A stretch of 64,000 nt of DNA from Minisyncoccota bacterium (GTDB lineage Bacteria > Patescibacteriota > Minisyncoccia > Phycocordibacterales > UBA9973): NCBI GenBank assembly GCA_031972855.1, contig DALYDY010000001.1:26765-90764 (forward strand). Reading direction: 5' to 3'. This document shows, piece after piece, positions 17,202-38,291 of the stretch. Both the position numbers and the translations under genes were made by a program. The notes under the pieces were generated by a model. The model was not told the DNA's origin, did no database searches, and was given only the letters and a program-made list of their open reading frames with translations. How positions within the stretch are numbered: the stretch's first letter is position 1; each line of letters begins with the position of its first letter.

Positions 17202-18509
17202 TTATTTTTTATTGTCAAAACTTTTTAAAGAAAAATAAAATATAAGTGTATATATAAAAATTAAAAACCAAATAGAAAATTCAGGTATATACATTACAGA
17301 AGTAGAAACACTCGAAACAAAGCTAATTATTTTTAAGATCAAAAATAGAAGATATTCTAAAATAACAGAAAAAGGTATTGCGAGCGGTAAATATATCAAT
17401 CCAAAAACTCCAACCAAAAATGAAAGAAGCATCGCTAAAGGAATAAGTGGAATAATTAAAATATTTATAGGAATAGAAAATACAGAAACAATACCTGTAG
17501 AAAATATTATTAGAGGCAGTACCATGAGAGTCGCTCCCAAGGTCGTTGCGAGAAGTTCTCTAATACCAAACCTCAATGTTATAAAAAATAAATATTTAAT
17601 TATTTTTGGAGCAATCACAATAACTCCAAAAGTTGCAAGAAATGACAATTGAAATGAAATATTAAAAATAACTTTTGGTTCAATGAGTATCATAATAAGA
17701 CCTGCTATCACAAGTGTACGAAGAGCAATGTTGGTGCGTCCTGTATATTTTGCTATAAGAACAATGATAGCCATAATACCAGCCCGTACAGCAGTCGCCG
17801 AACCTCCTGTCATAATTACAAAAAATATAATTCCAATAATTCCTCCAAAGATTGAAACATTGAATGAAAATATTTGTCGAAGTACAGATGTAATACTCTC
17901 TGCAACTATAGTTATGTTGTACCCAGACAAAGCGACAATATGAATAGTCCCTGTTCTAACAAAATCATCTTTTATTTTTTTATCAAAACCAGTTTTGTCT
18001 CCAAGTAATATTCCATTGGCTAACGCACTCTCATTCCCGTACAAAAGTTTATTAATAGAATTTTTAAAATTATTTTGAAAGGAAAATAAAAATCTTTTTA
18101 TAGAATATTTTGGTCTATCTATTTTAGATATTTTAGATCCTGAAATTATTGCTAGAATATTTTGAGATTCAAGATAAGTATCATATGCAAATTCTCTACC
18201 ATTATCAGTCTCAAATGGTTCTGGTTTTTCTAATTTTCCCGACAGTTTTATTTTGTCTCCAAAAAATACTTTTGGATTTTCATAAGTTCTTACAAGTACT
18301 AAAAAATTTTGATTATCAGGTCTAACATTAAAAGAAAAAGTATATTCACTTTCTACAACAGGTGAAACGACCTTACCAGACACTATTACCTTTTTATCAA
18401 AATTATCTTTGAAGATATTTGGGAGAGTTGTTGAGAATAAAAAAAGCCGGACCAAAGTTATAACACCCACAAGTCCGACCAAAATAATATCTACATATTT
18501 TTTATTCAT
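17202..18509 (-). CDS. comEC: ComEC/Rec2 competence channel domain protein (N-terminal part)
   Basis: 435 aa; N-terminal OB/DUF4131-like region then a polytopic competence domain (many TM helices, ..GYNITIV.., ..GGSATAVRAG..). Confidence 0.7.
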   Translation of the reverse strand: MNKKYVDIILVGLVGVITLVRLFLFSTTLPNIFKDNFDKKVIVSGKVVSPVVESEYTFSFNVRPDNQNFLVLVRTYENPKVFFGDKIKLSGKLEKPEPFETDNGREFAYDTYLESQNILAIISGSKISKIDRPKYSIKRFLFSFQNNFKNSINKLLYGNESALANGILLGDKTGFDKKIKDDFVRTGTIHIVALSGYNITIVAESITSVLRQIFSFNVSIFGGIIGIIFFVIMTGGSATAVRAGIMAIIVLIAKYTGRTNIALRTLVIAGLIMILIEPKVIFNISFQLSFLATFGVIVIAPKIIKYLFFITLRFGIRELLATTLGATLMVLPLIIFSTGIVSVFSIPINILIIPLIPLAMLLSFLVGVFGLIYLPLAIPFSVILEYLLFLILKIISFVSSVSTSVMYIPEFSIWFLIFIYTLIFYFSLKSFDNKK

Positions 18510-25226: not shown

Positions 25227-25465
25227 AAGCCCTTTAAGGGTTTTTATTTTGAAAAAGCATTTACTTGGTGTATAAATAAAAGAAAAATGGAAAATAGAAA
25301 AAACCAGATAATAACCAGATATCTTTCTAAAAAAATATGAGGAGGAGAAAACGTCCCACTTATACAAAAATGAATATGGCTATGGAAAGATTCTTGGGTC
25401 CATCATATTATCCAAAATACAACACATAAAAAGCCCCTTTTCAGGGCTTTTTTTATTAACAAATT

Positions 25466-26593
25466 TTATTTTAAAACATCTATTCCTACCAGAGTTCCTT
25501 TTGCGAGGAATTCAAGTGTTGCCCCTCCTCCAGTTGAGACAAAAGTGAATTTGTCTGTGAGTTTCATTTTTTGGACGAGAGTTACTGTATCACCTCCCCC
25601 AATAATAACTTCAGTCTTTTCTAGTTTTGCCAAACCTTTCAATAATTCTTTTGTTGCCTTGTCGTATCCGTGTTCATAAAATCCGAGAGGTCCATTCCAC
25701 ACAACAAGCTTTGAAGATTTTGCTAGCGCGAGAATTTCTTTTACAGTAGAGGCTCCAATATCTACAATCTTTTCTGTTTCTGTTGTTTCGGCAACGGTAC
25801 ATGTATGTGATGCACTATTTTCTTCTACTACTACATCCATAGGAAGGAAGAAGTTTTTGTGTTTCAAAATATTCTTTGGAACTTCAAATCCATCATCTAC
25901 GAGAGATGTTCCAACTTCAAATCCAGCACTTTTGAGAGCGTTGTTTGCAAGAGCACCACCAATGAATACAGAGTCAGCACTTTCAAGGTATTTTTTCAAA
26001 AGAGGAAGTTTTGTAGAAAACTTCGCCCCTCCAAGTATAAAAAGAAATGGGTGTTTTGGTTCGAGAACTTTTGAAAGATTTTTTATTTCTTCTTCGAGTT
26101 GAAGCCCAGCAAATGAAGGGAGATGTTTCGCAATTCCAAAAACTGAAGCATGTTTTCTGTGAGAAACTGAGAAAGCATCGTTTACATATAAGTCACCCAT
26201 ACGAGACAGGGATCTTGCAAGAACAGTATCATTTTCTTTTTCACCAGCAAAACGACGGATATTTTCGAGAAGCACAATATCCCCTCCTATCATTTTATCT
26301 GTAAGTTCTTCTATCTCTCTAAGATTTGTTGTTGGGAGAAATACTGTTTTTATTTTTTTATTCAAATATTTTGCAACAGGAGCGAGAGTTTGTGTTCCGT
26401 CTTCACCTAAGTGAGCGAGAAGAATAACTCTTGCTTTTTGTTTCACCAAAAATTCAATAGTTGGAAGGGCTTTGTCTATACGAAATGTATCTTGTATTTT
26501 TCCATTTTCAATAGGAACATTGAAATCAACACGAACAAGAACTTTGTTATTTTTTGATGTTAGTTTTTCTTTGATTTTTTTGAGTGTTTGCAT
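25466..26593 (-). CDS. pgk: Phosphoglycerate kinase
   Basis: 375 aa; VRVDFNVP N-terminus, PGK fold throughout; bidirectional terminator hairpin at 25428-25456. Confidence 0.93.
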   Translation of the reverse strand: MQTLKKIKEKLTSKNNKVLVRVDFNVPIENGKIQDTFRIDKALPTIEFLVKQKARVILLAHLGEDGTQTLAPVAKYLNKKIKTVFLPTTNLREIEELTDKMIGGDIVLLENIRRFAGEKENDTVLARSLSRMGDLYVNDAFSVSHRKHASVFGIAKHLPSFAGLQLEEEIKNLSKVLEPKHPFLFILGGAKFSTKLPLLKKYLESADSVFIGGALANNALKSAGFEVGTSLVDDGFEVPKNILKHKNFFLPMDVVVEENSASHTCTVAETTETEKIVDIGASTVKEILALAKSSKLVVWNGPLGFYEHGYDKATKELLKGLAKLEKTEVIIGGGDTVTLVQKMKLTDKFTFVSTGGGATLEFLAKGTLVGIDVLK

Positions 26594-27365
26594 ATTGTTT
26601 ATTCTTTTCTTTTAGTTTGTCGTAAGCGTTATTAATAATTCCTGTGAAATCCTTTGGTGAAAGCGAGACTCTACCTATAAGGAGTCCTGTTACACCTTGT
26701 ATATCCATAAAAGATTGCGCGTTAGCTTTGTCTACTGACCCACCGTATAGAACTTTTATGTCGTGAGCTATTTTTTCACCAACAATATCAGCAACGACAC
26801 GACGAATAAAGATGGTCATTTCTTCACATTCGCTTGGAGTAGAAGACCTTACAGCATCTTTACCTATTGCCCATATTGGTTCATACGCGATAACAACTTT
26901 TTTTATTTCGTTTGAAGTAAATCCTTCAAAGGCTTTGAGAATTTGTTCTTTTACTACATGTAGATACCAATGTTCTTCTGTTCTTTCTTTTTCTCCAACA
27001 CAAAGAACTGGAGTAATACCCTGTTTTAAAACGCTTCGCAATTTTTGAGAAACAATTTCATCAGTATCACCACTCCCTCTCATTTCTGAGTGCCCTACCA
27101 AACAATAAGAAACTTTGTATTGTTTTAAAATAAATGCAGATATTTTACCAGTGTATGCACCGAGATCTACTTCAAAAGCATCTTGTGCTCCAATAGAAAT
27201 ATTTTTACTTATTAATTTTGAAAGTTCTGGTATATAGAGAGTTGGAGAACATATGACAGCTTTACTATCTTTTTGCAATCCTTTTTTTATTGCTTTAAAA
27301 GTATTAATTGCCTCTTTTGAAGATTTTGGATTTAGTTTCCAGTTTCCAATAATTAGTGGTTCCAT
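26547..27365 (-). CDS. tpiA: Triosephosphate isomerase
   Basis: IGNWKLN, ..VGHSE.R.., ..AYEPIWAIGKD.., GGSV motifs. Confidence 0.93.
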   Translation of the reverse strand: MEPLIIGNWKLNPKSSKEAINTFKAIKKGLQKDSKAVICSPTLYIPELSKLISKNISIGAQDAFEVDLGAYTGKISAFILKQYKVSYCLVGHSEMRGSGDTDEIVSQKLRSVLKQGITPVLCVGEKERTEEHWYLHVVKEQILKAFEGFTSNEIKKVVIAYEPIWAIGKDAVRSSTPSECEEMTIFIRRVVADIVGEKIAHDIKVLYGGSVDKANAQSFMDIQGVTGLLIGRVSLSPKDFTGIINNAYDKLKEKNKQYANTQKNQRKTNIKK

Positions 27366-27402: not shown

Positions 27403-29172
27403 TTATTCTGTTTCACTCCAACCACTAGGTGTCCAAGATCCGGAAGGTCCAGAATTAAAGTTCATGTCAGCAAGTCCGGATTCATATTCAACTTCAGCCG
27501 AACCAGAAAGTGTAACTCTATAACCAGTCGCTTCTTTTGCTTTTGCTGATCCAGAAAAATTGATTGTCCCATATGGTGCATACAAAACAACAGAGCCAGC
27601 TGATCCAGAAACATTTATTGCATTGTAGCCACAAGTAGCAGAATCACAGTTTGATAAAGCTATCATTAGAACATAACTACCATTTTGACCTGTTCCATTA
27701 ACTTGTCCACTTCCTCCATTATCAAATTTACCATCTGTAATAATAATTCCACTACTGTTTCCATAAGAAGCGGAAGCTAAAACAATTTTACCAGAACCAG
27801 AGAGTGTTATGTTTCCTGTAACCCAAAGTGTTCCTGAAACATAAAGAGTTCCACTTCCTCCAACAGTTAGATTACCGACAATCTTTTTTGGACCAAGAGT
27901 TGCTGTATTACTTCCAGAAACATCATAGTTTCCATTATGAGTTCCTCCAGCTAAAGCTTCTTGTTTCCATTCTTCAATATTACCTTCAGATATTGGGAAT
28001 TCTTGGTATGCTGGATCGGCTTGAGTTGTATTACATATTTTATTGTTTCCTGTACCACTCTGACAATAAAGAGATCCTGTTACATTTGTATAGTTAACAG
28101 TATTTGCTCTCGCATCACCACTTGTAGTACCTACTCGAAATTGATTCCATTGACTACCTGAATTTCCAGCAATTCTTCCATTTATACTAGACAAGAATAC
28201 ATTAAAATAAAAATCAAGAGTTGAAGGTGAAAGATTACTCCAAGCACCAAACACTGCACCTTTTTTTGAAGCGCCAGGAATATATCCAGCATTATTTCCA
28301 CCTGCAGAGTAATATCCTCCACCTGAAGTTGTTGTCATAACAATCCAGTAAGTTGTACCGGCTGTTAATGTAGGATTTGTTGTAAAACTAATATCAACCC
28401 AACCATACGATGTGGATACTTGAGAAGAAGAAAGTGTACCTTGAGCAAGTGATCCGAAGCCAGGATTACTTCCATTGTTTGGCAATATATAGACAGTTGT
28501 ATTATAAGGATTTCCAGTTTTCTTTAGGTATAGCTGAACCTTACTCAATTGAGCTGTTGTTGTTAATTTGAAACTTTGAGCTATATCAGTATTTGAAGTA
28601 TTACCTACAGAGATATCGTAAGTTGGAGTTCCTTCGCCGTTATATTGATCAGCTGTTGTAGGACTATTTGCAGATGTAGCTGAGCCTGTAATTGAAGCTG
28701 AGCCATCACCCGTGATTGGTCCGTTTGCGTATACGTTTCCTTTTATTTTTGCACTTCCTGTTAAATTGATACCTCCTCTACCAACTTGAACACCGTAGTT
28801 AAAAGAGACACCTGTATCTTGTGTAATAGTAAGTCCTAAGTTTCTTTCATAAGAGTCCATTTGTCCAGTAGAATTGATTTGTTTTTGATTTGTATTAATT
28901 GTACTTATTATTGAAGTTGAAGATGAATCACCTAGTACAAGAGTTTCTGTTGTATCTATTGTTATGTTGTTTTTTATTCTATAAAAAGCATCTTCTATCC
29001 CAGATTCTGCTAGAAAATAACTTTGTTCTGATTTTAATTTTGCATGATTAGTTTTAAAATCTCTTGCTATTGGACTAATTATACCTGTGGTTATTGTTGC
29101 ACTAGCTAAAGCAAAAAATAAAACCACTATAGTCATTGCTGCTCCACTTTGATTCTTTAAAGTTTTTTTCAT
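27403..29172 (-). CDS. Large PilX-like minor pilin / tip-associated protein
   Basis: 589 aa; N-terminus ..QSGAAMTIVVLFFALAS.. resembles the PilX_N/TadG-type pseudopilin helix; rest is Gly/Ser/Thr/Asn-rich; last gene of the pilus operon. Confidence 0.5.
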   Translation of the reverse strand: MKKTLKNQSGAAMTIVVLFFALASATITTGIISPIARDFKTNHAKLKSEQSYFLAESGIEDAFYRIKNNITIDTTETLVLGDSSSTSIISTINTNQKQINSTGQMDSYERNLGLTITQDTGVSFNYGVQVGRGGINLTGSAKIKGNVYANGPITGDGSASITGSATSANSPTTADQYNGEGTPTYDISVGNTSNTDIAQSFKLTTTAQLSKVQLYLKKTGNPYNTTVYILPNNGSNPGFGSLAQGTLSSSQVSTSYGWVDISFTTNPTLTAGTTYWIVMTTTSGGGYYSAGGNNAGYIPGASKKGAVFGAWSNLSPSTLDFYFNVFLSSINGRIAGNSGSQWNQFRVGTTSGDARANTVNYTNVTGSLYCQSGTGNNKICNTTQADPAYQEFPISEGNIEEWKQEALAGGTHNGNYDVSGSNTATLGPKKIVGNLTVGGSGTLYVSGTLWVTGNITLSGSGKIVLASASYGNSSGIIITDGKFDNGGSGQVNGTGQNGSYVLMIALSNCDSATCGYNAINVSGSAGSVVLYAPYGTINFSGSAKAKEATGYRVTLSGSAEVEYESGLADMNFNSGPSGSWTPSGWSETE

Positions 29173-29173
29173 A

Positions 29174-29668
29174 TTAATAATTACCTCTAAGAGAAACTGT
29201 TTGATAAAAATTTTCTGTAATTAAACCATTACCACCATTAATTGAAGTTTGTAATTCTATTTTTACACCTTCACCTGTTGCTGTAGTTATTTTTCTAAAT
29301 ATTAGACTAGATAGAGTTAATTTACTTGAAAGAATATTCCCAGAAAGCACACCATTTTCTGTAAGGTTAATTGAATTTCCAGACACATCAAAACGAACAA
29401 TTTTTGAACTTGGTTGATTTAAAACAAGAACTCCAGGATTTGTACCAAAAGTACTACTTACACTATTTATACTTTCTGATTTTCTAATTTCTCTAGTGAA
29501 CCGCTCCATTGTTTTTGTTCCAACACTGATCAAATAACGACGAGCTACGACTTCTTTGAAAGAACTGTTTGAAATACTGTATGAATAAATAATTACACCA
29601 GACAAAACCACAAAAATAAGAAGATAAATTAGAACTTCGATTATTGTTGATCCTTTTTGTAGTCTCAT
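29174..29668 (-). CDS. Type IV pilus minor pilin (pseudopilin)
   Basis: Prepilin-type N-terminus QKGSTIIEVLIYLLIFVVL. Confidence 0.7.
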   Translation of the reverse strand: MRLQKGSTIIEVLIYLLIFVVLSGVIIYSYSISNSSFKEVVARRYLISVGTKTMERFTREIRKSESINSVSSTFGTNPGVLVLNQPSSKIVRFDVSGNSINLTENGVLSGNILSSKLTLSSLIFRKITTATGEGVKIELQTSINGGNGLITENFYQTVSLRGNY

Positions 29669-29673
29669 ATAAA

Positions 29674-30168
29674 TTAGAAAATATTAAAAATATAAAGTTG
29701 TAATTGCTTTGTTACAGTTCCTTCTTTAGTATTGAAAGTTGTTGTTATTGTAAAAAGTTTACTATTACTGTCGAGAGTTCCAGTACTTGCAATGTCATTG
29801 TTTACATCTCTATAAACATTTGAGACTGTAATAATTCTAGTGAAATAATCTATAGTATTGGGTGTTTGTGAAAGAGACCAGAGATTAGTAGTAGTATTAA
29901 AATAAAGATAATAATTCGTACCGACTTGAAGACTTGAGATATTTGTCCAAGAATTATCGCGAATAAGACGAACTGCTTCAGCTCCTTCTGACAATAAGTT
30001 TGTTGTTTGAACCTCTTTTAAAGCTCTATTTGATAGAGTTATTCCTTTTGTTGAAACAAATGATATAGCTAAAACCAAAGAACTAACAATAGCTGAAGCA
30101 ATAATAACTTCAATCAAAGAAAATCCTAAATTTGGTTTAAGAAAACTTTTTTTCATTTTAATTAACAC
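29674..30168 (-). CDS. Type IV pilus minor pilin (pseudopilin)
   Basis: N-terminus ..LGFSLIEVIIASAIV.. Confidence 0.7.
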   Translation of the reverse strand: MLIKMKKSFLKPNLGFSLIEVIIASAIVSSLVLAISFVSTKGITLSNRALKEVQTTNLLSEGAEAVRLIRDNSWTNISSLQVGTNYYLYFNTTTNLWSLSQTPNTIDYFTRIITVSNVYRDVNNDIASTGTLDSNSKLFTITTTFNTKEGTVTKQLQLYIFNIF

Positions 30169-30664
30169 TCACTGATCCTGTTTTTAAAACAGTTATAATT
30201 TTATTTGTCGAAGGGAGTGTGGTGAGTGATATTGTTATTGTACCATAATTATTTGTATCACCAGTGAGTCTAGCGAAGCTTAATGTCTGTCCTCCACCAT
30301 TTAGTGACCATGCAGCTTGTACACCATTTTCATATAACAGAATTTCATTACCTACAGCACCTTCAGTAAAATTTGTACCAGAAAATAAAACCACTCTTGT
30401 AGACTCAATACGTACAGAATATTGTAAACCATTTAAAGAATTTAATGTTTGGTTTTGAGCTTTTTCAATAACAGAAATTATTTGAGAAGATGTTGAATTT
30501 AAATTATTTCTACCTCTAGAATTTTTTATATTTGGCAAAACAATAGCAAGCATTAATAAAAGTAGTCCGAGAGCTATTATTGTCTCCATAAACGTAAACC
30601 CATACACCAAAATTTTTGGTGTATGGGTAAAACCTAGAATGTTTTTTGTGTAGAAATTTTTCAT
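30158..30664 (-). CDS. Type IV pilus minor pilin (pseudopilin)
   Basis: N-terminus ..YGFTFMETIIALGLLLLMLAI.. Confidence 0.65.
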   Translation of the reverse strand: MKNFYTKNILGFTHTPKILVYGFTFMETIIALGLLLLMLAIVLPNIKNSRGRNNLNSTSSQIISVIEKAQNQTLNSLNGLQYSVRIESTRVVLFSGTNFTEGAVGNEILLYENGVQAAWSLNGGGQTLSFARLTGDTNNYGTITISLTTLPSTNKIITVLKTGSVSVN

Positions 30665-30667
30665 AAT

Positions 30668-31870
30668 TTATATATTATCCATCAAAGAATACATTGGTGA
30701 AAGCATTGAAACAGCAAAAAATCCAACAGCCACACCGATAAATATCATAAGTATAGGCTCTATAATAGTAGATAAGTCTTTTGTTTTTGATTCAACTTCA
30801 CCTTCATAAAAAAGCGCAACATCTATTAGCATTTGAGATAGTTTTCCTGTTTCTTCTCCAACCTCCACCATTTCACCAAACATTACAGGATATAGATTTT
30901 CATTTGCTTTAAAAATACCAGACAAAGGCTCTCCTTTTTCAACAGCAACCTTAGCATCTTCAATTAGTTTTTTATACAAACTATTTTGCAAGACTTCTTT
31001 TGTTATATCCAAAGCACGAGTTACAGGAACACCAGCAATCAAAAGTGAAGCAAGTGTTCTTGCTGTGCGAGCACTATTTGCTTCACGCGCTATATTACCA
31101 ATAATAGGTAATTTCAAAATAATTTTGTCTGCATATTTTTTTGTAAAAGAAGATTTTCCAAAAAAATAGATTCCAAAACCAGATATTATTATAAATAAAA
31201 CAACCAACAACAAATGATTTGATAGTGTATCACTTATCCAAATAACAACTTTAGTAGAAGATGGCAGTTCAGCTCCAACATCTTTAAAAGTTTTTGTGAG
31301 AGTTGGTACAACGAAAATAAACATCAAAATACCTATAATAAAAATTGCTGAAATAATAATAGAAGGATACATTAAAGCTCCTTTTATTTTTTTATTTAAA
31401 GAATATGTCTTTTCAAGACTTTGGCCAATTTCGTTTAGTGCTCCTACCATTCCTCCAGATTCTTCTCCTGCTCTAACCATTGAGATAAAAAGTGTTGAGA
31501 AAATTTTTGGAAATTTCTCCATTGAAGATGAGAATGTACTACCACCAGAAATATCATTTACTATTTTTGATAAAACATCTTTGAATATAATATTTTTAGT
31601 TTGTCTTTCAAGAATAGATATTGCACGAGCAAGAGCAAGGCCAGCAGAAAGCATACCTGAAAGATTTTTTGTAAACATTATTTTTTCTGAAAGACCCACT
31701 CCACTACCAAAAGAAAAAGTAAGAGGTTTTTTCTCGCCAACTATTTTCAAATTTAAAAGTGTTTTTCCTTCAGATCTAAGCTGTTTTGACAAAGAAAATT
31801 TATCTGGAGACTCAATGATCCCATTTTCTTTTGTTCCATCATTTTTTATCGCTTCATAAGCAAATTTCAT
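30668..31870 (-). CDS. pilC: Type IV pilus assembly platform protein PilC (GspF family)
   Basis: 400 aa, two GspF repeats with three TM segments. Confidence 0.85.
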   Translation of the reverse strand: MKFAYEAIKNDGTKENGIIESPDKFSLSKQLRSEGKTLLNLKIVGEKKPLTFSFGSGVGLSEKIMFTKNLSGMLSAGLALARAISILERQTKNIIFKDVLSKIVNDISGGSTFSSSMEKFPKIFSTLFISMVRAGEESGGMVGALNEIGQSLEKTYSLNKKIKGALMYPSIIISAIFIIGILMFIFVVPTLTKTFKDVGAELPSSTKVVIWISDTLSNHLLLVVLFIIISGFGIYFFGKSSFTKKYADKIILKLPIIGNIAREANSARTARTLASLLIAGVPVTRALDITKEVLQNSLYKKLIEDAKVAVEKGEPLSGIFKANENLYPVMFGEMVEVGEETGKLSQMLIDVALFYEGEVESKTKDLSTIIEPILMIFIGVAVGFFAVSMLSPMYSLMDNI

Positions 31871-31875
31871 ATTTT

Positions 31876-33633
31876 TTATTCAGAAACAACACGCAAAACT
31901 TCTTCTGTTGTTGTATATCCTTGTACTGCAAGGAAAATACCATCTTCAAGCATAGTTATCATTCCCTCTTTTTTTCCTTGAGCTTCTATTGCGTCAGCTG
32001 AAGCACCTGAAATAATCAAATCTTTTATTGTTGATGTAACTTTTAATACTTCATGAATACCTACACGCCCCTTATATCCGTCTTCAGCATCAGCTGATCC
32101 TACAGGCTTATAAAAAGGTACATCTTTCCATTCTACTTTTTGATCAACAACATTTTCTTCTTTTAAAAGATTTAACATTCTATCTAGATCAATTATTTTT
32201 CCTAGAGCCTTTAACTCTGCTTCATTCATAAAGTACTTTTCTTTTGAATCAGCAAGTCTTCTAACTAGACGTTGAGCAATAACAGTCTTTAATGTTGAAA
32301 CAAGAAGAAATGGTTCGGCTCCCATATCGATAAAACGAGGAATTGCACCAGCAGCTGAGTTTGTGTGAATAGTTGATAAAACCAAGTGACCGGTAAGGGC
32401 AGCATTAATAGCTAAAGATGCTGTTTCTCCATCACGAATCTCTCCCACCATTATTATATTTGGATCTTGACGAAGAAGTGCGCGCAAACCATTTGCAAAA
32501 GTCATTCCAATATCAGAACGAACTTGAGTTTGATTTATACGAGCCATCTGATATTCAATAGGGTCTTCAACTGTTGAAATATTTACATTAGGAGTATTCA
32601 ACATATCCAAAATAGTATATAGGGTTGTAGTTTTACCAGAACCTGTTGGACCTGAAGCAAGTATCATGCCAGTGTGAAGTTTCATTGCTTCATGAATTCT
32701 CTCTAAAGACTCACCATGAAATCCTAATTTTTCTAATGAAAATCCTTTTGAGTTTTCACGCAAAATACGAATAACTGTTTTTTCTCCAAAATATGTTGGG
32801 ATTGTAGACACACGAAAAGAAACTTTTTGATCTTCATTAGATATTTTAAAACGCCCATCTTGAGGAAGTCGCTTTTCATCAAGTTTCAAATTTGAAAGAA
32901 CTTTTATACGAGCAACAATTCCATGAGCAGAGTCTTTTGGCAAAACCATGGCGTCACGCAAAATACCATCAATACGATAACGAACAACAAGAGAATCTTC
33001 TAAAGGTTCTATGTGAATATCAGAAGCATCTTGCAAAATAGCATGTGAAATAAGAGAATCCACAATCTTAACGATAGGTAAATCTTCGGCAAGCTCTTTT
33101 AATTCAGCCTCAGAAACAGCTTCCCCATTATTTGCACCTTCGGCTATAGCTTTAATTGAAACAGATTCTTTTTGAATTATGTCGTCGAATTCTGCACGAA
33201 GACTTTTTTTGTATAAAGTTAGTGCGTGTTTTATAGAAGAAACATCTGTAAGTCTTGGTAGAATTTTTTGTTGTAATTTTTTTCTTAAAAAATCAATTGT
33301 TGATATATCATTAATATCGAGCATCGCAACTTCAACAGTCGTTTCTGTTTTTTTATAAGCAACAACATTATGATTTTTTGCAATTGGTTCTGGAATAAGA
33401 GAAAGCACATCTGCATCTATCTTTTCATCAACCAAAGAAACGAAAGGTACACCAAGAACATACGCCTGGGCTCGACGCAAATCTGTTTCTGATATTTTAT
33501 TTTCAGAAACAAGCACATCTGCAAATGAAGATCTTTTATCTTTAGATACTTCTTCCGCAGAAGTAACATCATCTCGTGTTACAACACCAGCATCTATAAG
33601 AAACGATTTTAATGCTTCTTCATTTATAATCAT
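31876..33633 (-). CDS. pilB: Type IV pilus assembly ATPase PilB (GspE family)
   Basis: Walker A ..ASGPTGSGKTTTLY.., N-terminal GSPII domain, His box; start moved to the internal ATG MIINEEALK.. at 33633. Confidence 0.9.
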   Translation of the reverse strand: MIINEEALKSFLIDAGVVTRDDVTSAEEVSKDKRSSFADVLVSENKISETDLRRAQAYVLGVPFVSLVDEKIDADVLSLIPEPIAKNHNVVAYKKTETTVEVAMLDINDISTIDFLRKKLQQKILPRLTDVSSIKHALTLYKKSLRAEFDDIIQKESVSIKAIAEGANNGEAVSEAELKELAEDLPIVKIVDSLISHAILQDASDIHIEPLEDSLVVRYRIDGILRDAMVLPKDSAHGIVARIKVLSNLKLDEKRLPQDGRFKISNEDQKVSFRVSTIPTYFGEKTVIRILRENSKGFSLEKLGFHGESLERIHEAMKLHTGMILASGPTGSGKTTTLYTILDMLNTPNVNISTVEDPIEYQMARINQTQVRSDIGMTFANGLRALLRQDPNIIMVGEIRDGETASLAINAALTGHLVLSTIHTNSAAGAIPRFIDMGAEPFLLVSTLKTVIAQRLVRRLADSKEKYFMNEAELKALGKIIDLDRMLNLLKEENVVDQKVEWKDVPFYKPVGSADAEDGYKGRVGIHEVLKVTSTIKDLIISGASADAIEAQGKKEGMITMLEDGIFLAVQGYTTTEEVLRVVSE

Positions 33634-33738
33634 TAAGTATATTTTCTCACAGACTTTGATTAATAGCACGAAAAAATTTGTGTATAAAATAAAAAATCCC
33701 AACAATTATTTTAATCAGTTGGGATTTTTTATTTTTTA

Positions 33739-35244
33739 TTACCAAGTAATTTTTATTTGTCCTGCAGCACCATGTCCAGCTTGAGGACAACCATTTGGTA
33801 TACAACCATAACCATAATTTCTTCTTCCTCCATTTCCAACTGTTATATTAAATGTTTCACCAGCATTTACAGGAAAAGCTGTTTTTATATAACCACCAGC
33901 TCCACCACCATAAGCTTTATTTATTTGATGAACACCTGAGCCTCCAGCAAAACGAAATACAAAATTATCAGCTTTTAATCCTTTACACAAATCAATAACT
34001 CCTATTTTACAATTATCTAAATCTAGATAATTAGAAGGCGTACCTGAAACACTGTCTGTACCATATACACCAGAAGGAGCTCCCGGTGTACTTCCACCGC
34101 CACCAGGAAGAACTCCGTCTTTTACTTCTACATGGCCACTATTAGTCCAAAAACCACCCAATGTTCTATATCCTGCACTATTATCTGTATTACCACTACC
34201 CCATGCCCTACCTATAGAAAACCAAGATCCTTGTCCAGTTCCAAAATCAAGATTTAAACAATTAAAATCTAGTGGAAGTCTTGCTGCGTCACTAAACGCT
34301 CCTAAGTTTCCAGGGTCAAATAAACTATTTAAAATAGGTGCAACACCTCCTGGAGTACTAGAAGAAGATCCTAAGTATGCTGCTCCACCAACAGCTCCAC
34401 CTCCTCCAGTATTTCCATAAACAAGGTAACGATTAGGATTCCCTGAATAATTACATTCATAGATAGATGGTGTTGGAGCATTTGGAGCACCAGTTCCATT
34501 ACCACCAGCACGAATATCATTTATACCTATTGTTGAACGAGTACCAGTTCTAGCTCCTCCAATTCCTCCAGCACCTCCACTTGTATTAGATGCATTTGAT
34601 CCATTGTATCCAGTAACCGAAATACTAGAACCTGTTGTTGAAACTATTGTTGAATTATTTGGTTGAATTACTGTAGGTCCAACTTCTTGATTATTACTTG
34701 TAAGTCCAACATATCCAGCTCCTCCAGCTCCCCAAACTTCAACCATGACTTGATAGACGCCAGAAGATGGAACTTGCCATGTATAATTTCCTGGTAAATC
34801 TGGATATCCAGAAACATCATTTTCTGCTGTATTAAACATAGCAACTCCATGAGATGTATTTTGAGGTACATCAACACAAAGAATTACTTGTCCCGTATTA
34901 GAAACACAAAGCCTTTGAGGTGTTGTTGATGTTGATATATTAGAAATTGATAATCCTTTTGTTGTAAGATTTCCTGTTATAGAAGCATTTCCATTAGAAA
35001 CAATTCCATTTGTTGTGAGTGTACCATAAACATCTAATTTAGTACCTGATGTAGGAGAATTAGAACTTCCGATCATAAAAGATCCTGTTCTTGAATTAAT
35101 ATTATCTCCAACATTCCATATTGAGGGTTGTCCATTTGGATATCCAGAAGATGGTCTTGCTGCATAAATATCAACAAAATTAACAGCAACAATTAAAACT
35201 AGAGACGCAACTATAAGTTTTATAAAAGGTATATATTTTTTCAT
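33739..35244 (-). CDS. Secreted Gly-rich protein, long member of a 3-gene paralogous family
   Basis: Sec signal peptide; N-terminal about 110 aa homologous to the next two ORFs (..RPSxxYPN.QP..., ..GTLxTNG.., T..R.LCVS..G.LI.C Cys pair); then a roughly 390-aa Gly-rich extension. Confidence 0.5.
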   Translation of the reverse strand: MKKYIPFIKLIVASLVLIVAVNFVDIYAARPSSGYPNGQPSIWNVGDNINSRTGSFMIGSSNSPTSGTKLDVYGTLTTNGIVSNGNASITGNLTTKGLSISNISTSTTPQRLCVSNTGQVILCVDVPQNTSHGVAMFNTAENDVSGYPDLPGNYTWQVPSSGVYQVMVEVWGAGGAGYVGLTSNNQEVGPTVIQPNNSTIVSTTGSSISVTGYNGSNASNTSGGAGGIGGARTGTRSTIGINDIRAGGNGTGAPNAPTPSIYECNYSGNPNRYLVYGNTGGGGAVGGAAYLGSSSSTPGGVAPILNSLFDPGNLGAFSDAARLPLDFNCLNLDFGTGQGSWFSIGRAWGSGNTDNSAGYRTLGGFWTNSGHVEVKDGVLPGGGGSTPGAPSGVYGTDSVSGTPSNYLDLDNCKIGVIDLCKGLKADNFVFRFAGGSGVHQINKAYGGGAGGYIKTAFPVNAGETFNITVGNGGRRNYGYGCIPNGCPQAGHGAAGQIKITW

Positions 35245-35245
35245 A

Positions 35246-35626
35246 TTATGGACAAACTATTAATTTACCAATACTAGATACGCAAAGTTCTCTGTTTGTA
35301 GGAGACGTACCAGAAAGTTTACTTACGGTTAAATTTGTAGTATCTAAATTATAATTTATTTGTGTATTTGCTGGAACAATGAAACCATTAGTGAATAATG
35401 TACCAATTATATCAAACATAACACCAGGTGTTGGAGAATTAGACGTACCCACAGCAAGAGCTGATGTTCTCATTTGAGGAGAAGATGAATTTAAAACAAA
35501 AGGTGATACTGGTTGACTATTTGGATATGTACCACTTGGCCTTACCGCAAAAGTGTGTACTGCATTTGATAAAAGAACAATACTTATAGATACAAAGAAT
35601 AAATGTGTTATTGATATTTTTTTCAT
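35246..35626 (-). CDS. Small secreted protein, paralogue family member
   Basis: 126 aa; signal peptide; ends ..TNRELCVSSIGKLIVCP. Confidence 0.5.
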   Translation of the reverse strand: MKKISITHLFFVSISIVLLSNAVHTFAVRPSGTYPNSQPVSPFVLNSSSPQMRTSALAVGTSNSPTPGVMFDIIGTLFTNGFIVPANTQINYNLDTTNLTVSKLSGTSPTNRELCVSSIGKLIVCP

Positions 35627-35630
35627 ATAT

Positions 35631-36167
35631 TTAACAAGCTACCAAAACGTTATAAGTCCAAGGATTTATAAATCCGAGTGTTAAAGTGTTTTGAACAATA
35701 CAAACATTTCTAGTTCCAGAACCAACCAAATCTGTTATTAGAACATCACCATCTGTACTACCAGACGATGTTTTATTCACTGTTGTTGTTCCAGAAGTTA
35801 TAACATCACCATCAACAAGTAATCCGTCTGTAAGTGAACCTGAAGGGAGATTGAGAGATCCTATTTTTGTAATTCCATTAACATGAACTGTTTGCCCAAG
35901 AGCTGGCGGATTAAAACTTGGAATACTGCCACCAAAATTATAAGGTTGACTGTCAATCCCTATAGCAAGAGCCCTCCTAACAACATCGGCGCTAGTTCTG
36001 TTTTGAGGAGCTTCACCTGTCTTGCTTTGAGAAATACCTGTTATTAAAACAGGACTTGATGGTTGTCCCCCTGGTGCTATTTGTGTTGGAGAAGCGTAAG
36101 TTACCCCTACAGCTGAAAGCAGTACAAAACTTACTATAATAATTGATTCTTTTAGTGAAAAATACAT
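35631..36167 (-). CDS. Small secreted protein, paralogue family member
   Basis: 178 aa; signal peptide; ends ..RNVCIVQNTLTLGF..VLVAC. Confidence 0.45.
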   Translation of the reverse strand: MYFSLKESIIIVSFVLLSAVGVTYASPTQIAPGGQPSSPVLITGISQSKTGEAPQNRTSADVVRRALAIGIDSQPYNFGGSIPSFNPPALGQTVHVNGITKIGSLNLPSGSLTDGLLVDGDVITSGTTTVNKTSSGSTDGDVLITDLVGSGTRNVCIVQNTLTLGFINPWTYNVLVAC

Positions 36168-36184
36168 ATATAATTAATCTTTTT

Positions 36185-37960
36185 TTATTCTTCTTTATAA
36201 AAAGGTGCTGGTAAAATATTTGTTCCAAATCTCCACAACAATCTTCCACCTTTTCCAGTTAGAGGACTTCCAGTAATAAACATTCCTGGATCAACACCTT
36301 TTATTCCAACAATTGTAGAAGCTATAACAACTTTACCATTAGTGTCTGCACACTCTAAAGTAAATGTTTCAGCTGTTGCGCCCATATTTACAGTTTCTGA
36401 TCCTGAAATACTTTTTGGACCAGTCCAAGCAGGAGTTGATCCTGCTGGAATAATGTTTGCAGAACCACCTATACCCGTATAAGCTTTACAGCCAGAAACA
36501 TTTTTACCTTCCCATCTTAATAATGTTGTACTGTTTGGGTCTACAACTTGAGGAAAAGCTGTCAATCTTAAACCTGAAGGTGTTACATTTATTCCATTAA
36601 CTTTTGGATTTCCTCCTGTAAAGTAAACAACACTATTTCCCCCACTTCCATTAGCACAAGAGAGTAGATACTGATTTATTGCACCATTATAAATAACAGA
36701 AACTGAACCAGATCTAGATATTTGACCACTACCTGGCTGAGTTGCACCATTTAATGTACATGTTCCAGAAGGAATTTGAGCTAGAGGTGTAACATTAAAG
36801 CTTGTTGAGTGAGTTTCTGATCCGTCAGTTGAATCAACTACAACCAAATGATTTCCAGACCCAGCAGCAAGATTTACAGGGATAGTCATTCTAATTACAA
36901 ATGTTCCACTTATATTTGTACTTAAAAATCTCATATCAAGAGGATAAGTAGGAGCAAGACTTGGGTCTGGTTGAGCTCGTGGTACTGGATTACCATTATA
37001 AAGAAGTTCATATGTAGCTCCAGACAGAGATGGATTATTAGAACCTATTGATGTATATAAGTTTTTAGAACTTGGGTGTCCTAGAACTGTTAAAGGTATA
37101 TCAAAAGAAACATTTGCACCACCCTCAACAAAAGTTGCTGGATAAGGAACACCTATATAAAACCAAGGCATAACAACTCCAGACAGAATTGTTACTGTTG
37201 TATTACTTGAAACAGTAGTTATTCCATCTGTACATGTTATTGTATAAACTCTTGAAGATGAAGGATCATTACCTACATTCACTGTATCAGTTCCTGAAGT
37301 AGCTTTTGTTCCAGACCACTGACTAGAAGATATACTATTACTTGCTGTACAAGTATAACCTGTTAAATTTTGAGATGTCCAAGATAGAGTAATATTGCTA
37401 TTTCTATAAACACTATTTGGTGTAGCTGTAATTGTAACTGTAGGAGTTATTGATGATTGAACACCAACACCAGAAAAATCAATCCAGCCTATTTTATCAT
37501 TCCAAGCGTGTCCTTGAAACATTCCAGAACCGCCACTAATAACACTTACACCCGCCAAATCAACAAATCCTTCAGATCCAAGTGATAATATTTTTGCAAA
37601 ACCTTGCATTCCAGTATTAGAATTAAGTCTTGGACTACAAGGTGAAGAATTCCCAGAATAAGAAGAACATCCAACAGAATCACTTGACTCAAAAGATATC
37701 CATCCAAGATTATCATTCCAAGCGTACCCAGAGAAATTACCATTTGTTGACATATTTACACCATAATCTACACCAGAACAACTAGAAGATACTGTAGATG
37801 TACAGTTATTAAATGATAACCACCCAATAGTATCATTCCATGCATGACCAAAAACATTATCTCCAGAACTAGAAGAAACTGTATTTATATTTAAAAAACT
37901 AAAAGATAATATTATAGCCAGAGTTCCTATTGAAGAATAAATTATATTTTTTATTTTCAT
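36185..37960 (-). CDS. Large secreted repeat protein (G[YH]AWND..GW[IL].F repeats + Ig-like region)
   Basis: 591 aa; signal peptide; GHAWNDTIGWLSFNNC / GYAWNDNLGWISFESS / GHAWNDKIGWIDFSG; same repeat type as the 11443..13080 protein. Confidence 0.5.
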   Translation of the reverse strand: MKIKNIIYSSIGTLAIILSFSFLNINTVSSSSGDNVFGHAWNDTIGWLSFNNCTSTVSSSCSGVDYGVNMSTNGNFSGYAWNDNLGWISFESSDSVGCSSYSGNSSPCSPRLNSNTGMQGFAKILSLGSEGFVDLAGVSVISGGSGMFQGHAWNDKIGWIDFSGVGVQSSITPTVTITATPNSVYRNSNITLSWTSQNLTGYTCTASNSISSSQWSGTKATSGTDTVNVGNDPSSSRVYTITCTDGITTVSSNTTVTILSGVVMPWFYIGVPYPATFVEGGANVSFDIPLTVLGHPSSKNLYTSIGSNNPSLSGATYELLYNGNPVPRAQPDPSLAPTYPLDMRFLSTNISGTFVIRMTIPVNLAAGSGNHLVVVDSTDGSETHSTSFNVTPLAQIPSGTCTLNGATQPGSGQISRSGSVSVIYNGAINQYLLSCANGSGGNSVVYFTGGNPKVNGINVTPSGLRLTAFPQVVDPNSTTLLRWEGKNVSGCKAYTGIGGSANIIPAGSTPAWTGPKSISGSETVNMGATAETFTLECADTNGKVVIASTIVGIKGVDPGMFITGSPLTGKGGRLLWRFGTNILPAPFYKEE

Positions 37961-37961
37961 A

Positions 37962-38291
37962 TTATTGATTTTTTAAAAATTCATTAACCAAATCTTCGTC
38001 AGCATTTTTAACTTCTTTTGGAGAAACTGTGAATGATTCTTGTTTTTTTAGATCTTCTACCATTTTTTGTTTTTCTTCTGGTGTTGTTTTTATAGAAGCA
38101 GCTCTTTGTGCTACATTTTCTGTATATTGTTCTATTTGAGTCTTTTTTGGTTTATTATTCTTTTTATAAAACCAAAAAGCGGCTCCTAATATAATCAAAA
38201 CTATTAGTATAGAAATAACAAGAGAGAGGGTTTGTTTGCTCATATATAATTTGTGGGCAAATGGTGTTGATTCTTTATTTATTGGATCCAT
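37962..38291 (-). CDS. Small membrane-anchored protein (first gene of pilus operon)
   Basis: 109 aa, single TM, charged C-terminal tail. Confidence 0.4.
   Translation of the reverse strand: MDPINKESTPFAHKLYMSKQTLSLVISILIVLIILGAAFWFYKKNNKPKKTQIEQYTENVAQRAASIKTTPEEKQKMVEDLKKQESFTVSPKEVKNADEDLVNEFLKNQ

What the first reader, a model, noticed from the sequence alone, without database searches (positions are those of the whole stretch)
27403..38291. Type IV pilus/competence-pilus operon with atypical cargo: no major pilin or PilM/N/O/T here, but a 3-gene secreted paralogue family and giant Gly-rich proteins
Operon order (minus sense): small TM protein, 591-aa repeat protein, three tandem paralogous Sec-secreted proteins (178, 126, 501 aa), PilB, PilC, three pseudopilins, a 589-aa PilX-like minor pilin, then directly tpiA-pgk. 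The three paralogues share an N-terminal module ending in a Cys pair (T..R.LCVS..G.LI.C), like a pilin D-region disulfide loop, yet they have Sec rather than prepilin signals. The longest adds a roughly 390-aa Gly-rich tail. Proposed role: pilus-tip or surface-displayed adhesin set for host/episymbiont attachment or DNA capture. This role is inference.
Basis: partly seen in the sequence, partly recalled or inferred. Interest (0 to 1): 0.55.

Follow-up and report, generated by a model that had tools for sequence, protein, structure and literature searches.

The report
Tail-fibre-like adhesin cassette beside pilus operon
In this tiny symbiotic-type (CPR/Paceibacteria) bacterium, an ordinary type IV pilus gene set lies next to a separately transcribed five-gene cassette of secreted surface proteins, one with a phage-tail-fibre-like receptor-binding head, so these are candidate host-recognition fibres rather than pilus cargo.

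Summary
The "one operon with cargo" reading does not hold. A strong terminator hairpin (33686-33736) separates two units:
- a five-gene cassette: small membrane protein, 591-aa repeat protein, and paralogues A178, B126 and C501;
- pilB-pilC, three pseudopilins, a 589-aa PilX/GspK-like protein, then tpiA-pgk.

Relatives keep a terminator at this spot, with unrelated stem sequences. The same cassette sits beside nusA without pilB in four other lineages. At least seven relatives have pilB directly beside nusA with no cassette.

Best reading: autonomous surface fibre adhesins, similar in architecture to Bdellovibrio MAT fibres. Pilus docking remains a minority possibility. Only about 119 of 1.84 billion representative proteins match the family profile. 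I rate this a new variant of a known kind, of moderate interest.

The parts
37962..38291 (-). tm109: the first cassette gene, a small single-pass membrane protein with a Lys/Glu-rich tail. The KKNNKPKK run directly after the TM segment suggests the C-terminus is cytoplasmic.
   Evidence: ORF. Only compositional hits to FtsN-type TM regions, all below cut-off. Orthologues head the cassette in L004, L007, L008, L009, L092, L093 and L096. The topology is inferred from the positive-inside rule.
36185..37960 (-). rep591: a Sec-type secreted modular protein. It has three N-terminal G[HY]AWND.[IL]GW[LI].F repeats (starting at residues 38, 78 and 150), then Ser/Thr-rich regions with 10 Cys, and a conserved extreme C-terminus (...APFYKEE).
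   Evidence: It has 122 homologues. Of the 120 listed, nearly all are a signal peptide plus 2-3 repeats plus variable domains (PKD, Ig, LamG, fn3, Kelch). Two of the 120 (P0144, P0185) are prepilin fusions. No Pfam or NCBIfam family matches.
35631..36167 (-). A178: paralogue A. It consists of a Sec-type signal and the N-module with insertions, with a Cys pair at residues 156 and 178.
   Evidence: (N-module HMM E 1.2e-15). Type-specific orthologues occur in L004-L009, L092 and L093.
35246..35626 (-). B126: paralogue B. It is the N-module alone, with a Sec-type signal (likely cleavage after TFA) and Cys115/Cys125.
   Evidence: (E 2e-38). The AF2 model has module pLDDT of 50-74, short beta-strands and no compact fold.
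33739..35244 (-). C501: paralogue C. It has the N-module (residues 1 to about 125, Cys113/Cys123), then a TNF-like plus glycine-rich domain with long insertions.
33686..33736 (-). Intrinsic-terminator-like hairpin plus T-run, placed between C501 and pilB.
   Evidence: Sequence. Fold dG -22.3 kcal/mol, z -5.3, with 0 of 200 shuffles folding as well. Functionally equivalent hairpins with different stem sequences occur in L004/5, L008 and L014, and in all 12 loci with an N-module gene upstream of pilB.
31876..33633 (-). pilB: the extension ATPase (585 aa from the ATG at 33633).
   Evidence: T2SSE E 2e-121 and MshEN. Gene calls of 584-585 aa in relatives. A conserved promoter-like stretch lies upstream.
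30668..31870 (-). pilC: the platform protein.
   Evidence: T2SSF matched twice. GspF and PilC NCBIfam models E 9e-94 and 9e-84.
30158..30664 (-). pp1: a prepilin-type minor pilin (G|FTFME).
   Evidence: ComGE-like at 35.7 bits, below the 49-bit cut-off. Motif found. No Cys.
29674..30168 (-). pp2: a prepilin-type minor pilin (G|FSLIE).
   Evidence: N_methyl 23.3 bits against a 21.2 cut-off. TIGR02532 match.
29174..29668 (-). pp3: a prepilin-type minor pilin (G|STIIE).
   Evidence: N_methyl 19.7 bits, just below the cut-off. The motif was read from the sequence.
27403..29172 (-). A 589-aa PilX/GspK-like large minor pilin. It lacks E5, has a choice-of-anchor R domain at residues 186-315, and a Gly/Ser/Thr-rich repeat C-terminus. 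It is the in-operon candidate for a pilus-tip adhesin.
   Evidence: NF041539 36.1 bits against a cut-off of 30. No Pfam family. Its position after three minor pilins is conserved in about 60 relatives. The parallel with the large PilX1/PilX2 proteins of Saccharibacteria is described in PMC11623550.
25428..27365 (-). tpiA (26547-27365) and pgk (25466-26593), probably co-transcribed with the pilus genes. A terminator lies at 25428-25452.
   Evidence: Translations; TIM and PGK Pfam calls on the orthologues in relatives. The gap after the pilX-like gene is 37 bp and has no terminator; the terminator comes after pgk. The pilB...pilX-tpiA-pgk order is conserved across the PilB-anchored loci.

Best explanation
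The region holds two adjacent, co-oriented but separate systems.

(1) A conserved type IV pilus core. It comprises PilB, PilC and four "core minor pilin"-type proteins, the largest being a PilX/GspK-like protein with its own adhesin-type domains. It is transcribed together with tpiA-pgk from a promoter downstream of a terminator.

(2) An autonomous five-gene cassette anchored next to nusA, in the order tm109, rep591, A178, B126, C501. It encodes Sec-exported cell-surface proteins. A, B and C share a roughly 100-aa beta-rich N-module, closed by a disulfide hairpin, directly after the signal peptide. I infer that this module is the cell-proximal or oligomerisation part of a fibre. C501 carries a distal TNF-like plus glycine-rich head of the kind that phage tail fibres use to bind receptors.

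The proposed function is recognition of, and attachment to, a partner or host cell surface by fibre-type adhesins. These would evolve fast at the tip, in the manner of Bdellovibrio MAT fibres and phage receptor-binding proteins.

Shown: gene content, paralogy, the terminator, conservation patterns, the fold of the C501 head, and relative evolutionary rates.

Inferred: export and signal cleavage, trimeric fibre assembly, surface location, the roles of tm109, rep591, A and B, and the adhesin function itself.
For: - Terminator. A hairpin after C501 has dG -22 kcal/mol and z -5.3. The gap to pilB is 105 bp against 17 bp or less elsewhere. Non-homologous terminators sit at the same place in L004/5, L008 and L014, and in 12 of 12 loci with N-module genes upstream of pilB.
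- Cassette without pilB. In L007, L092, L093 and L095 the cassette lies next to nusA, followed by a Por_Secre_tail protein and then tuf-rpsJ or other genes. Its composition was confirmed by HMMs.
- pilB operon without the cassette. The nusA-pilB gap is 105-177 bp in L032, L046, L047, L050, L078, L081 and L089. In L022 other genes precede pilB.
- Fibre hallmark. The N-module protein of L079 ends in a Peptidase_S74 intramolecular trimerisation chaperone (48.5 bits against a cut-off of 22). Other family members carry different C-terminal parts.
- Evolutionary rates, window versus L008. NusA 91%, PilB 89%, PilC 83% and TpiA 91%. Against these, tm 71%, rep 62%, A 62%, B 58% and C 41%, with the N-module of C at 59% and its head at 35%.
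- Extracytoplasmic signature. Sec-type signals, even Cys counts (2, 2, 8, 10) and an invariant Cys pair.
- Architecture parallel. Bdellovibrio MAT fibres have a signal peptide, a conserved roughly 130-aa beta-rich N-domain, variable tips, and S74 and non-S74 subfamilies (PMC10769870).
Against: - There are no experimental data on export, localisation or binding.
- The N-module is predicted only at low confidence (pLDDT 35-74), so its fold and oligomeric state are unknown.
- C501 itself is below the Pfam Gly_rich_2 threshold (16 bits against 24.3).
- The cassette or N-module genes do sit immediately upstream of, and co-oriented with, pilB in the window's own clade and in 12 of the 80 more distant loci. 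A functional link with pili is therefore not excluded.
- Rare prepilin fusions exist for the rep repeat domain (P0144, P0185) and for a glycine-rich domain (P0106). These modules can therefore be pilus-borne in some organisms.
- The terminators are predictions; read-through is possible.
Confidence: 0.55

Rival explanations
1. Pilus-associated accessory proteins, working like PilY1. In this reading A, B and C (and perhaps rep591) are Sec-exported non-pilin proteins. They would be loaded onto the minor-pilin tip complex through the shared N-module and displayed at the pilus tip as interchangeable adhesins. This is essentially the first reader's proposal.
For: - The cassette is adjacent to, and co-oriented with, pilB in the window and in L004, L005, L008 and L009.
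- N-module genes sit directly upstream of pilB in 12 of the 80 PilB-anchored loci. They appear nowhere else in those 20-kb loci apart from one marginal hit (E 0.006) in L040.
- Cassette proteins and minor pilins both evolve fast.
- Rare prepilin fusions exist for the rep repeats and for a glycine-rich domain.
- There is a precedent from established knowledge: PilY1/PilC are Sec-dependent non-pilin tip adhesins. The parallel is also discussed for Saccharibacteria PilX2 in PMC11623550.
Against: - A terminator always separates these genes from pilB.
- The cassette is retained next to nusA in four lineages where pilB is not adjacent.
- Many pilB operons lack it.
- It sits upstream of pilB rather than inside the minor-pilin block where PilY1 genes lie.
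- There is no PilY1/Neisseria_PilC domain.
- The operon already encodes its own large tip-type protein, the 589-aa PilX-like protein.
Confidence: 0.2
2. Structural envelope proteins. In this reading the cassette encodes components of the cell wall or S-layer-like surface coat of this CPR cell. rep591 would be anchored through its aromatic GW-type repeats, and A, B and C would be coat subunits. There would be no specific role in partner recognition.
For: - The cassette has a conserved chromosomal position beside a housekeeping gene (nusA) in several lineages.
- The rep N-terminal repeat module is widespread in CPR as an N-terminal module on many different secreted proteins, as expected for an anchoring domain.
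- A second such protein lies in the window at 11443-13080.
Against: - The family is rare, with 119 hits at E<=1e-3 among 1.84 billion representatives.
- It is absent from the slot in many close relatives, which is unexpected for an essential coat.
- The C501 head has the fold of receptor-binding fibre tips and is the fastest-evolving part.
- The S74 chaperone in a family member points to fibres rather than lattices.
Confidence: 0.15
3. A remnant of a prophage or tailocin. In this reading the glycine-rich tail-fibre-like gene and its neighbours are leftover phage receptor-binding genes with no cellular role.
For: The closest structural and profile matches of the C501 head are phage tail fibres and tail-tip proteins.
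Against: - No other phage-type gene lies in or around the cassette (no PHROG hit for tm, rep, A, B or C).
- All the cassette proteins except tm109 (a signal-anchor-type membrane protein) carry Sec-type signal peptides.
- The same order and location next to nusA is kept down to about 30% identity of the C protein.
- GC content is the same as the surroundings.
Confidence: 0.03

Closest known systems
Bdellovibrio bacteriovorus MAT (mosaic adhesive trimer) fibres (PMC10769870)
   Same: Both are chromosomally encoded, phage-tail-fibre-like surface proteins of a bacterium that lives on other bacteria. Both have a signal peptide followed directly by a conserved beta-rich N-terminal domain of about 100-130 aa, and then variable C-terminal binding parts. 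Both families have members with and without an S74 intramolecular chaperone. Both occur as several paralogues per genome.
   Different: Sequence or fold homology of the N-modules was not tested, because no MAT sequences were available. The CPR proteins are much shorter (126-501 aa against roughly 1000 aa), and two of the three have no tip at all. Here they form a fixed five-gene cassette with a small membrane protein and a repeat protein. The envelope is not Gram-negative. Trimer formation and surface location are not shown.
Phage tail-fibre tips with a TNF-like plus glycine-rich domain (cyanophage Pam3 gp24, PDB 7ypx; Pfam PF21722 Gly_rich_2; ALK/LTK glycine-rich domain)
   Different: C501 has a Sec signal and the CPR N-module in place of a baseplate-docking helix. 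It has long low-confidence insertions (residues 304-371 and 394-438). No chaperone gene of the gp25 type is evident. It is below the Pfam threshold on its own (16 bits).
Type IV pilus core-minor-pilin operons of Patescibacteria (Saccharibacteria T4P-1/T4P-2, PMC11623550; CPR pilus families, PMC6744442)
   Same: The window has PilB and PilC plus several small minor pilins and one large PilX-type protein that lacks a canonical prepilin signal and carries extra domains. There is no secretin. ComEC is encoded nearby in the window.
   Different: The major pilin and PilD, PilT and PilM/N/O are not in this window. The operon runs on into tpiA-pgk. This part is ordinary for the group.
PilY1/PilC non-pilin pilus-tip adhesins
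   Same: They are Sec-type exported and not pilins. They are encoded near pilus genes and proposed to act as adhesins.
   Different: There is no PilY1 beta-propeller domain. The genes are not located inside the minor-pilin block and are separated from pilB by a terminator. The cassette also persists without adjacent pilus genes.

Membership tests
Type IV pilus / T2SS-type filament system (the pilB to pilX-like block) | A PilB/GspE-type hexameric ATPase and a PilC/GspF-type platform protein | tested here: met
   T2SSE at 405 bits plus MshEN; T2SSF matched twice; GspF and PilC NCBIfam models E 9e-94 and 9e-84.
Type IV pilus / T2SS-type filament system (the pilB to pilX-like block) | Pilin or pseudopilin subunits with a class III signal (Gly at -1, Glu at +5, hydrophobic N-terminal helix) | tested here: met
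   pp1 G|FTFME, pp2 G|FSLIE and pp3 G|STIIE. N_methyl or TIGR02532 is above the cut-off for pp2 and near it for pp3.
Type IV pilus / T2SS-type filament system (the pilB to pilX-like block) | Major pilin, prepilin peptidase PilD, and alignment proteins PilM/N/O (plus PilT for retraction) | tested here: not met
   None was found in the 64-kb window by motif scan or by Pfam scans of most of the remaining ORFs of at least 100 aa. They are probably encoded elsewhere in the genome, which could not be searched.
Type IV pilins (as a possible identity of A178, B126 and C501) | A class III signal peptide with Gly-1 and Glu+5, and an N-terminal alpha-1 helix | tested here: not met
   No motif was found. 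The N-termini have Sec-type n/h/c regions ending in Ala at -1, followed by a Pro-rich stretch. The AF2 models show only the signal helix and then short strands.
Type IV pilins (as a possible identity of A178, B126 and C501) | A C-terminal disulfide-bonded D-region on a pilin globular domain | tested here: inconclusive
   An invariant Cys pair exists. It closes a short beta-hairpin at the end of a non-pilin module, and in C501 it is internal (C113/C123). The organism's own pseudopilins have no Cys.
   No Cys occurs in the first 110 residues of A, B or C.
Glycine-rich domain, Pfam PF21722 Gly_rich_2 (TNF-like plus glycine-rich fibre tip) | A match to the family HMM above the gathering score | tested here: inconclusive
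   C501 scores 16 bits and its orthologue P0003 scores 23.6 bits, against a cut-off of 24.3. The distant family members P0017 (39 bits, full-length match) and P0018 (27.4 bits) pass.
Glycine-rich domain, Pfam PF21722 Gly_rich_2 (TNF-like plus glycine-rich fibre tip) | A TNF-like beta-sandwich carrying stacked glycine-rich loops (fold level) | tested here: met
Glycine-rich domain, Pfam PF21722 Gly_rich_2 (TNF-like plus glycine-rich fibre tip) | Trimeric assembly and receptor binding | not testable with these tools
   Only monomer prediction was available.
Bdellovibrio MAT fibre superfamily | A signal peptide followed by a conserved beta-rich N-terminal domain, then variable C-terminal tips, with S74 and non-S74 subfamilies | tested here: met
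   The architecture is seen across about 50 N-module proteins. Tips include the glycine-rich domain, S74 (L079) and others without a family match.
Bdellovibrio MAT fibre superfamily | Homology of the N-terminal domain, and an intertwined trimeric beta-prism or beta-helix stalk | not tested
   No MAT sequences or models could be obtained, and the AFDB library was unavailable. The PDB has no sequence relative of the N-module.
PilY1/PilC pilus-tip adhesins | A C-terminal PilY1/Neisseria_PilC beta-propeller, with the gene inside the minor-pilin operon | tested here: not met
   There is no such Pfam hit and the fold is TNF-like plus glycine-rich. The genes lie upstream of pilB, beyond a terminator.

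The most novel reading that the evidence does not exclude
The nusA-proximal cassette would encode a CPR-specific, previously undescribed heteromeric surface organelle. A, B and C would co-assemble through their shared disulfide-capped N-module into a short fibre. rep591 and tm109 would tether the fibre to the envelope. The fibre would cooperate physically with the neighbouring type IV pilus, for example by being handed to or docked on the minor-pilin tip, to select the host cell. The fast-evolving, phage-like glycine-rich head would be the determinant of host range.
Probability: 0.12. Interest if true: 0.7.

Novelty: new variant of a known kind. Interest (0 to 1): 0.4.

Why it matters
Paceibacteria and related CPR bacteria are thought to live attached to other microbes, but none of this clade is cultured and their host-recognition molecules are unknown. 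Type IV pili are the usual suspects.

This analysis separates the pilus genes from a neighbouring, independently conserved cassette. The largest of the cassette's three paralogues (C501) has the fold that phages use to pick their hosts, and its tip is the fastest-evolving segment compared in the locus. That gives concrete, expressible candidates for partner-binding assays and host prediction: the C501 head, the N-module and rep591.

It also suggests that using phage-fibre-like adhesins for cell-cell recognition, as described for the predator Bdellovibrio, extends to ultrasmall episymbionts. Finally, it is a caution against reading tight gene order as an operon in these compact genomes, since the pilus genes themselves run straight into tpiA-pgk.

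Tried and rejected
- **Paralogues as disguised pilins.** Rejected. They have no class III motif and no alpha-1 helix, and the organism's own pilins lack Cys.
- **Lipoproteins.** Rejected, as there is no lipobox.
- **Prophage remnant.** Rejected. There are no phage neighbours, all the cassette proteins except tm109 have Sec-type signals, and the chromosomal position is conserved.
- **Homologue searches.** Word-seeded searches with C501 and B126 found only 4 and 5 clusters. The exhaustive profile search was needed to reach distant members.
- **Profile design.** I meant that profile to cover only the N-module, but it also modelled the Gly-rich part (418 positions). Many weak hits are therefore generic glycine-rich-domain matches.
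- **AF2 on the N-module.** Two attempts, with 17 and 29 sequences, stayed at low confidence. No fold assignment was attempted for it.
- **AFDB fold library.** It was unavailable.
- **PDB sequence searches.** Searches with the N-module and C501 profiles found nothing.
- **PHROGs.** Nothing was found for the window's own cassette proteins.
- **sigma-70 promoter scan.** It found no more sites than chance (47 against 55.7 expected), so no promoter call rests on it. That scan also missed the C501 terminator, because the loop exceeds its limit.
- **The 24-kb contig carrying P0002.** Its DNA could not be fetched.
- **Rfam.** Nothing beyond tRNAs was found.

Full report
**Organism and setting**

The window has about 33% GC. 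It carries a ribosomal-protein/tuf/fusA block, RNase Y, trigger factor and a split ComEC. PilB-anchored relatives in the species-representative genome collection are labelled Candidatus Nomurabacteria, Paceibacterota, Parcubacteria or, for many ENA-derived MAGs, uncultured Candidatus Saccharibacteria, at 64-71% PilB identity. The window therefore comes from a Paceibacteria-type CPR bacterium. Identical or near-identical copies of the locus occur on public contigs (L001-L003, and L009 = GCA_964586445).

**Check of the observation**

- PilB: T2SSE E 2e-121 plus MshEN. PilC: T2SSF twice, and GspF/PilC models. Both are unambiguous.
- The three proteins of about 165 aa carry prepilin motifs: G|FTFME, G|FSLIE and G|STIIE.
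- The 589-aa protein has a hydrophobic N-terminus without Glu+5 and an "AESGIEDA" motif reminiscent of PilX/GspK N-domains. This is my reading; there is no Pfam hit. It also has a choice-of-anchor R domain above threshold.
- Three small minor pilins plus one large E5-less protein match the well-known "core minor pilin" set (GspH/I/J/K, or FimU/PilV/W/X). This comparison rests on established knowledge rather than a tool result. The large PilX1/PilX2 tip candidates of Saccharibacteria are a close parallel (PMC11623550).
- No further prepilin motif and no PilD, PilT or PilM/N/O was found among the window ORFs I scanned. Most ORFs of at least 100 aa were covered; a few were judged from their N-termini only.

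**The paralogue family**

- A178, B126 and C501 align over a shared N-terminal module.
- A family HMM recovers them at E 1e-15 to 1e-46.
- In an alignment of 29 diverged modules (mean column identity 25%) the only invariant columns are the two cysteines.
- The N-termini are Sec-type. They have a basic n-region, a hydrophobic core, and Ala at -1 of the likely cleavage site (TFA|V, IYA|A, TYA|S). A Pro-rich stretch follows. There is no lipobox and no class III motif.
- The secreted non-pilin proteins have even cysteine counts (2, 2, 8, 10, 4), whereas the three pseudopilins have none. The proposed likeness to a pilin D-region is therefore superficial.

**Operon structure**

Gene spacing inside each block is -11 to 17 bp, but C501 and pilB are 105 bp apart.

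- That gap contains AAAAAATCCCAAC...GTTGGGATTTTTT. It folds at -22.3 kcal/mol (z -5.3; 0 of 200 shuffles as good) and is followed by a T-run.
- Relatives with 41-46% identical C proteins have equally strong hairpins with T-runs at the same place, but with unrelated stem sequences. A conserved promoter-like stretch follows, just before pilB.
- All 12 more distant loci with an N-module gene just upstream of pilB also have such a hairpin in the short gap.
- Downstream, the pilX-like gene is followed after 37 bp by tpiA-pgk with no terminator. The terminator comes after pgk.

The predicted units are therefore [tm109-rep591-A-B-C] and [pilB-pilC-pp1-3-pilX-tpiA-pgk].

**Conservation**

- The full arrangement is kept in close relatives (L004/5, L008, L009).
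- Among the 80 PilB-anchored loci, the backbone pilB-pilC-pp1-3-pilX-tpiA-pgk is widely conserved.
- The interval between the divergent nusA and pilB ranges from 105-177 bp (seven loci) to more than 8 kb. It is filled with unrelated signal-peptide proteins.
- A broader N-module HMM finds N-module genes immediately upstream of pilB in 12 of these loci. It finds them nowhere else in those 20-kb stretches apart from one marginal hit (E 0.006) in L040.
- Conversely, the same ordered cassette (tm, rep, A, B, C; confirmed by HMMs) lies next to nusA without pilB in L007, L092, L093 and L095. There it is followed by a Por_Secre_tail protein and then tuf-rpsJ or other genes.

The cassette is thus an autonomous unit anchored at nusA. 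In the window's lineage it happens to abut the pilus operon.

**What the proteins are**

*Family size.* An exhaustive profile search of 1.84 billion representatives gave only 119 hits at E<=1e-3 and 10 at E<=1e-10. It is a small family that, as far as the members with traceable source contigs show, is confined to CPR/Patescibacteria-type genomes.

*Common architecture.* Members share a Sec signal, a Pro-rich linker, a Q.K.G.L..G....LDV.G motif, short beta-strands and a Cys-closed hairpin. After that comes either nothing or a variable C-terminal part.

*C501 head.*
- It is sub-threshold for Pfam Gly_rich_2 (16 bits), but distant members pass with full-length matches (P0017 39 bits, P0018 27.4 bits). 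Those members also match tail-fibre PHROG 863 at E 1e-21 and 4e-24.
- The AF2 model of C501 (17 sequences; mean pLDDT 59.5) has a confident core at residues 150-260 and 440-500.
- BFVD gives 20 hits at E<=1e-3, mostly "glycine-rich domain-containing" proteins of tailed phages.
- In Pam3 this TNF-like plus glycine-rich unit is the trimeric receptor-binding tip, with a hypervariable distal end (PMC9608196).

*Fibre hallmark.* One N-module protein (L079, directly upstream of pilB) ends in a Peptidase_S74 intramolecular chaperone (48.5 bits). This domain is the hallmark of trimeric phage fibres and spikes, and of the S74 subfamily of Bdellovibrio MAT fibres (PMC10769870).

*N-module fold.* The module itself is predicted only at low confidence as short strands without a compact fold. 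That is compatible with an obligate oligomer, but it does not demonstrate one.

*rep591.* It belongs to a much larger CPR family. Nearly all of the 120 listed homologues have a Sec signal, then 2-3 "G[WY]AWS.N[IV]GW[IV]SF" repeats, then variable PKD, Ig, LamG, fn3 or Kelch domains. Two of the 120 are prepilin fusions. By its position and aromatic repeats I infer an envelope-anchoring module; this is not tested.

*tm109.* It is a single-pass membrane protein of unknown role.

**Evolutionary rates (window versus L008)**

| Protein | Identity |
|---|---|
| NusA | 91% |
| TpiA | 91% |
| PilB | 89% |
| PilC | 83% |
| tm109 | 71% |
| rep591 | 62% |
| A178 | 62% |
| B126 | 58% |
| C501 (whole) | 41% |
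| C501 N-module | 59% |
| C501 head | 35% |
| Minor pilins and PilX-like | 42-59% |

The C501 head is the fastest-evolving segment compared in the locus, as expected for an exposed recognition surface.

**Interpretation**

The best-supported model is that the cassette encodes autonomous, Sec-exported surface fibre adhesins. The shared N-module would be the cell-proximal or assembly part, and the glycine-rich head of C501 the binding tip. The closest analogue in architecture is the Bdellovibrio MAT fibre family. The closest structural relatives of the head are phage tail-fibre tips.

The pilus-docking (PilY1-like) reading keeps some weight. N-module genes recur just upstream of pilB, and rare pilin fusions exist for the rep repeats (P0144, P0185) and for a glycine-rich domain (P0106). 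Against it stand the terminators, the cassette's persistence without pilB, the pilus operons without a cassette, and the presence of a dedicated large tip-type protein inside the pilus operon. A purely structural-coat role and a prophage remnant are less likely; the reasons are given under the rival explanations.

**Novelty and score**

- The pilus part is ordinary for CPR bacteria (PMC6744442, PMC11623550).
- The cassette is an uncharacterised, rare family. Its N-module has no Pfam, NCBIfam or PDB relative.
- Its kind, a phage-fibre-like bacterial surface adhesin, is known. I therefore rate it a new variant of a known kind.
- Interest is moderate at 0.4. It provides concrete candidates for host recognition in an uncultured clade.
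- The function is inferred, and the N-module fold, oligomeric state and any link to pili remain open.

Noticed in passing
window 11443-13080 (-): A second Sec-type protein (545 aa) has the same N-terminal 'G..W...IGWI' repeat module as rep591, followed by a CarboxypepD_reg domain. The repeat module is therefore reused on other surface proteins of this genome.
   Followed up: partly
window 52800-55400: About 2.6 kb next to a Ro60/TROVE+vWA (Rsr) orthologue (51164-52774, minus strand) has no ORF of 110 aa or more. Its GC is about 0.40, against 0.29-0.38 in neighbouring 2-kb windows. No Rfam family matches even at E<=1. It could be a large or Y-RNA-like non-coding RNA region, or decayed genes.
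   Followed up: partly
window 15379-18509: ComEC is encoded in two pieces. DUF4131 plus the Competence channel domain lies at 17202-18509 (-), and the metallo-beta-lactamase domain at 15379-16266 (-). An Fe/Mn superoxide dismutase gene on the opposite strand (16261-16866) sits between them.
   Followed up: partly
window 30598-30628 (-): A perfect 14-bp-stem hairpin (ACCCATACACCAAA/TTTGGTGTATGGGT) lies inside the leader-coding part of pseudopilin pp1. Some relatives have a shorter pp1 (156 aa in L004/L005; 120 aa in L008), so the real start codon, or a regulatory element, may lie here.
   Followed up: no
window 36185-36230 (C-terminus of rep591); L014, L018, L024, L092, L093, L095: The rep-type proteins in the nusA-proximal slot (first after tm109 where that gene is present) all end in a similar extreme C-terminus: PFYKEE, IKVIER, PIYHER, PRFEEF, PHYQEN, PIFIEQ. 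The preceding sequences are unrelated. This may be a docking or sorting motif.
   Followed up: no
L022 8224-9157 (Parcubacteria RAAC4_OD1_1): In this relative, a thioredoxin-like CPHC protein and a VKOR/DsbB-like membrane protein lie about 0.85 kb upstream of pilB, with a 142-aa ORF (9525-9953) between them and pilB, in place of the cassette. This echoes the reported link between CPR pili and a disulfide-forming system (PMC6744442).
   Followed up: no
L082 6392-7564: An N-module protein upstream of pilB shows weak, sub-threshold Hint/intein-like hits at residues 187-286. This hints at an autoprocessing C-terminal part in some family members.
   Followed up: no
L007 9222-10409; L092 9391-11013; L093 9593-10528; L095 3402-4745: Where the cassette is not followed by pilB, it is followed by a protein with a Por_Secre_tail (T9SS-type C-terminal) domain. 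This is odd for CPR bacteria, which are not known to have a type IX secretion system.
   Followed up: no
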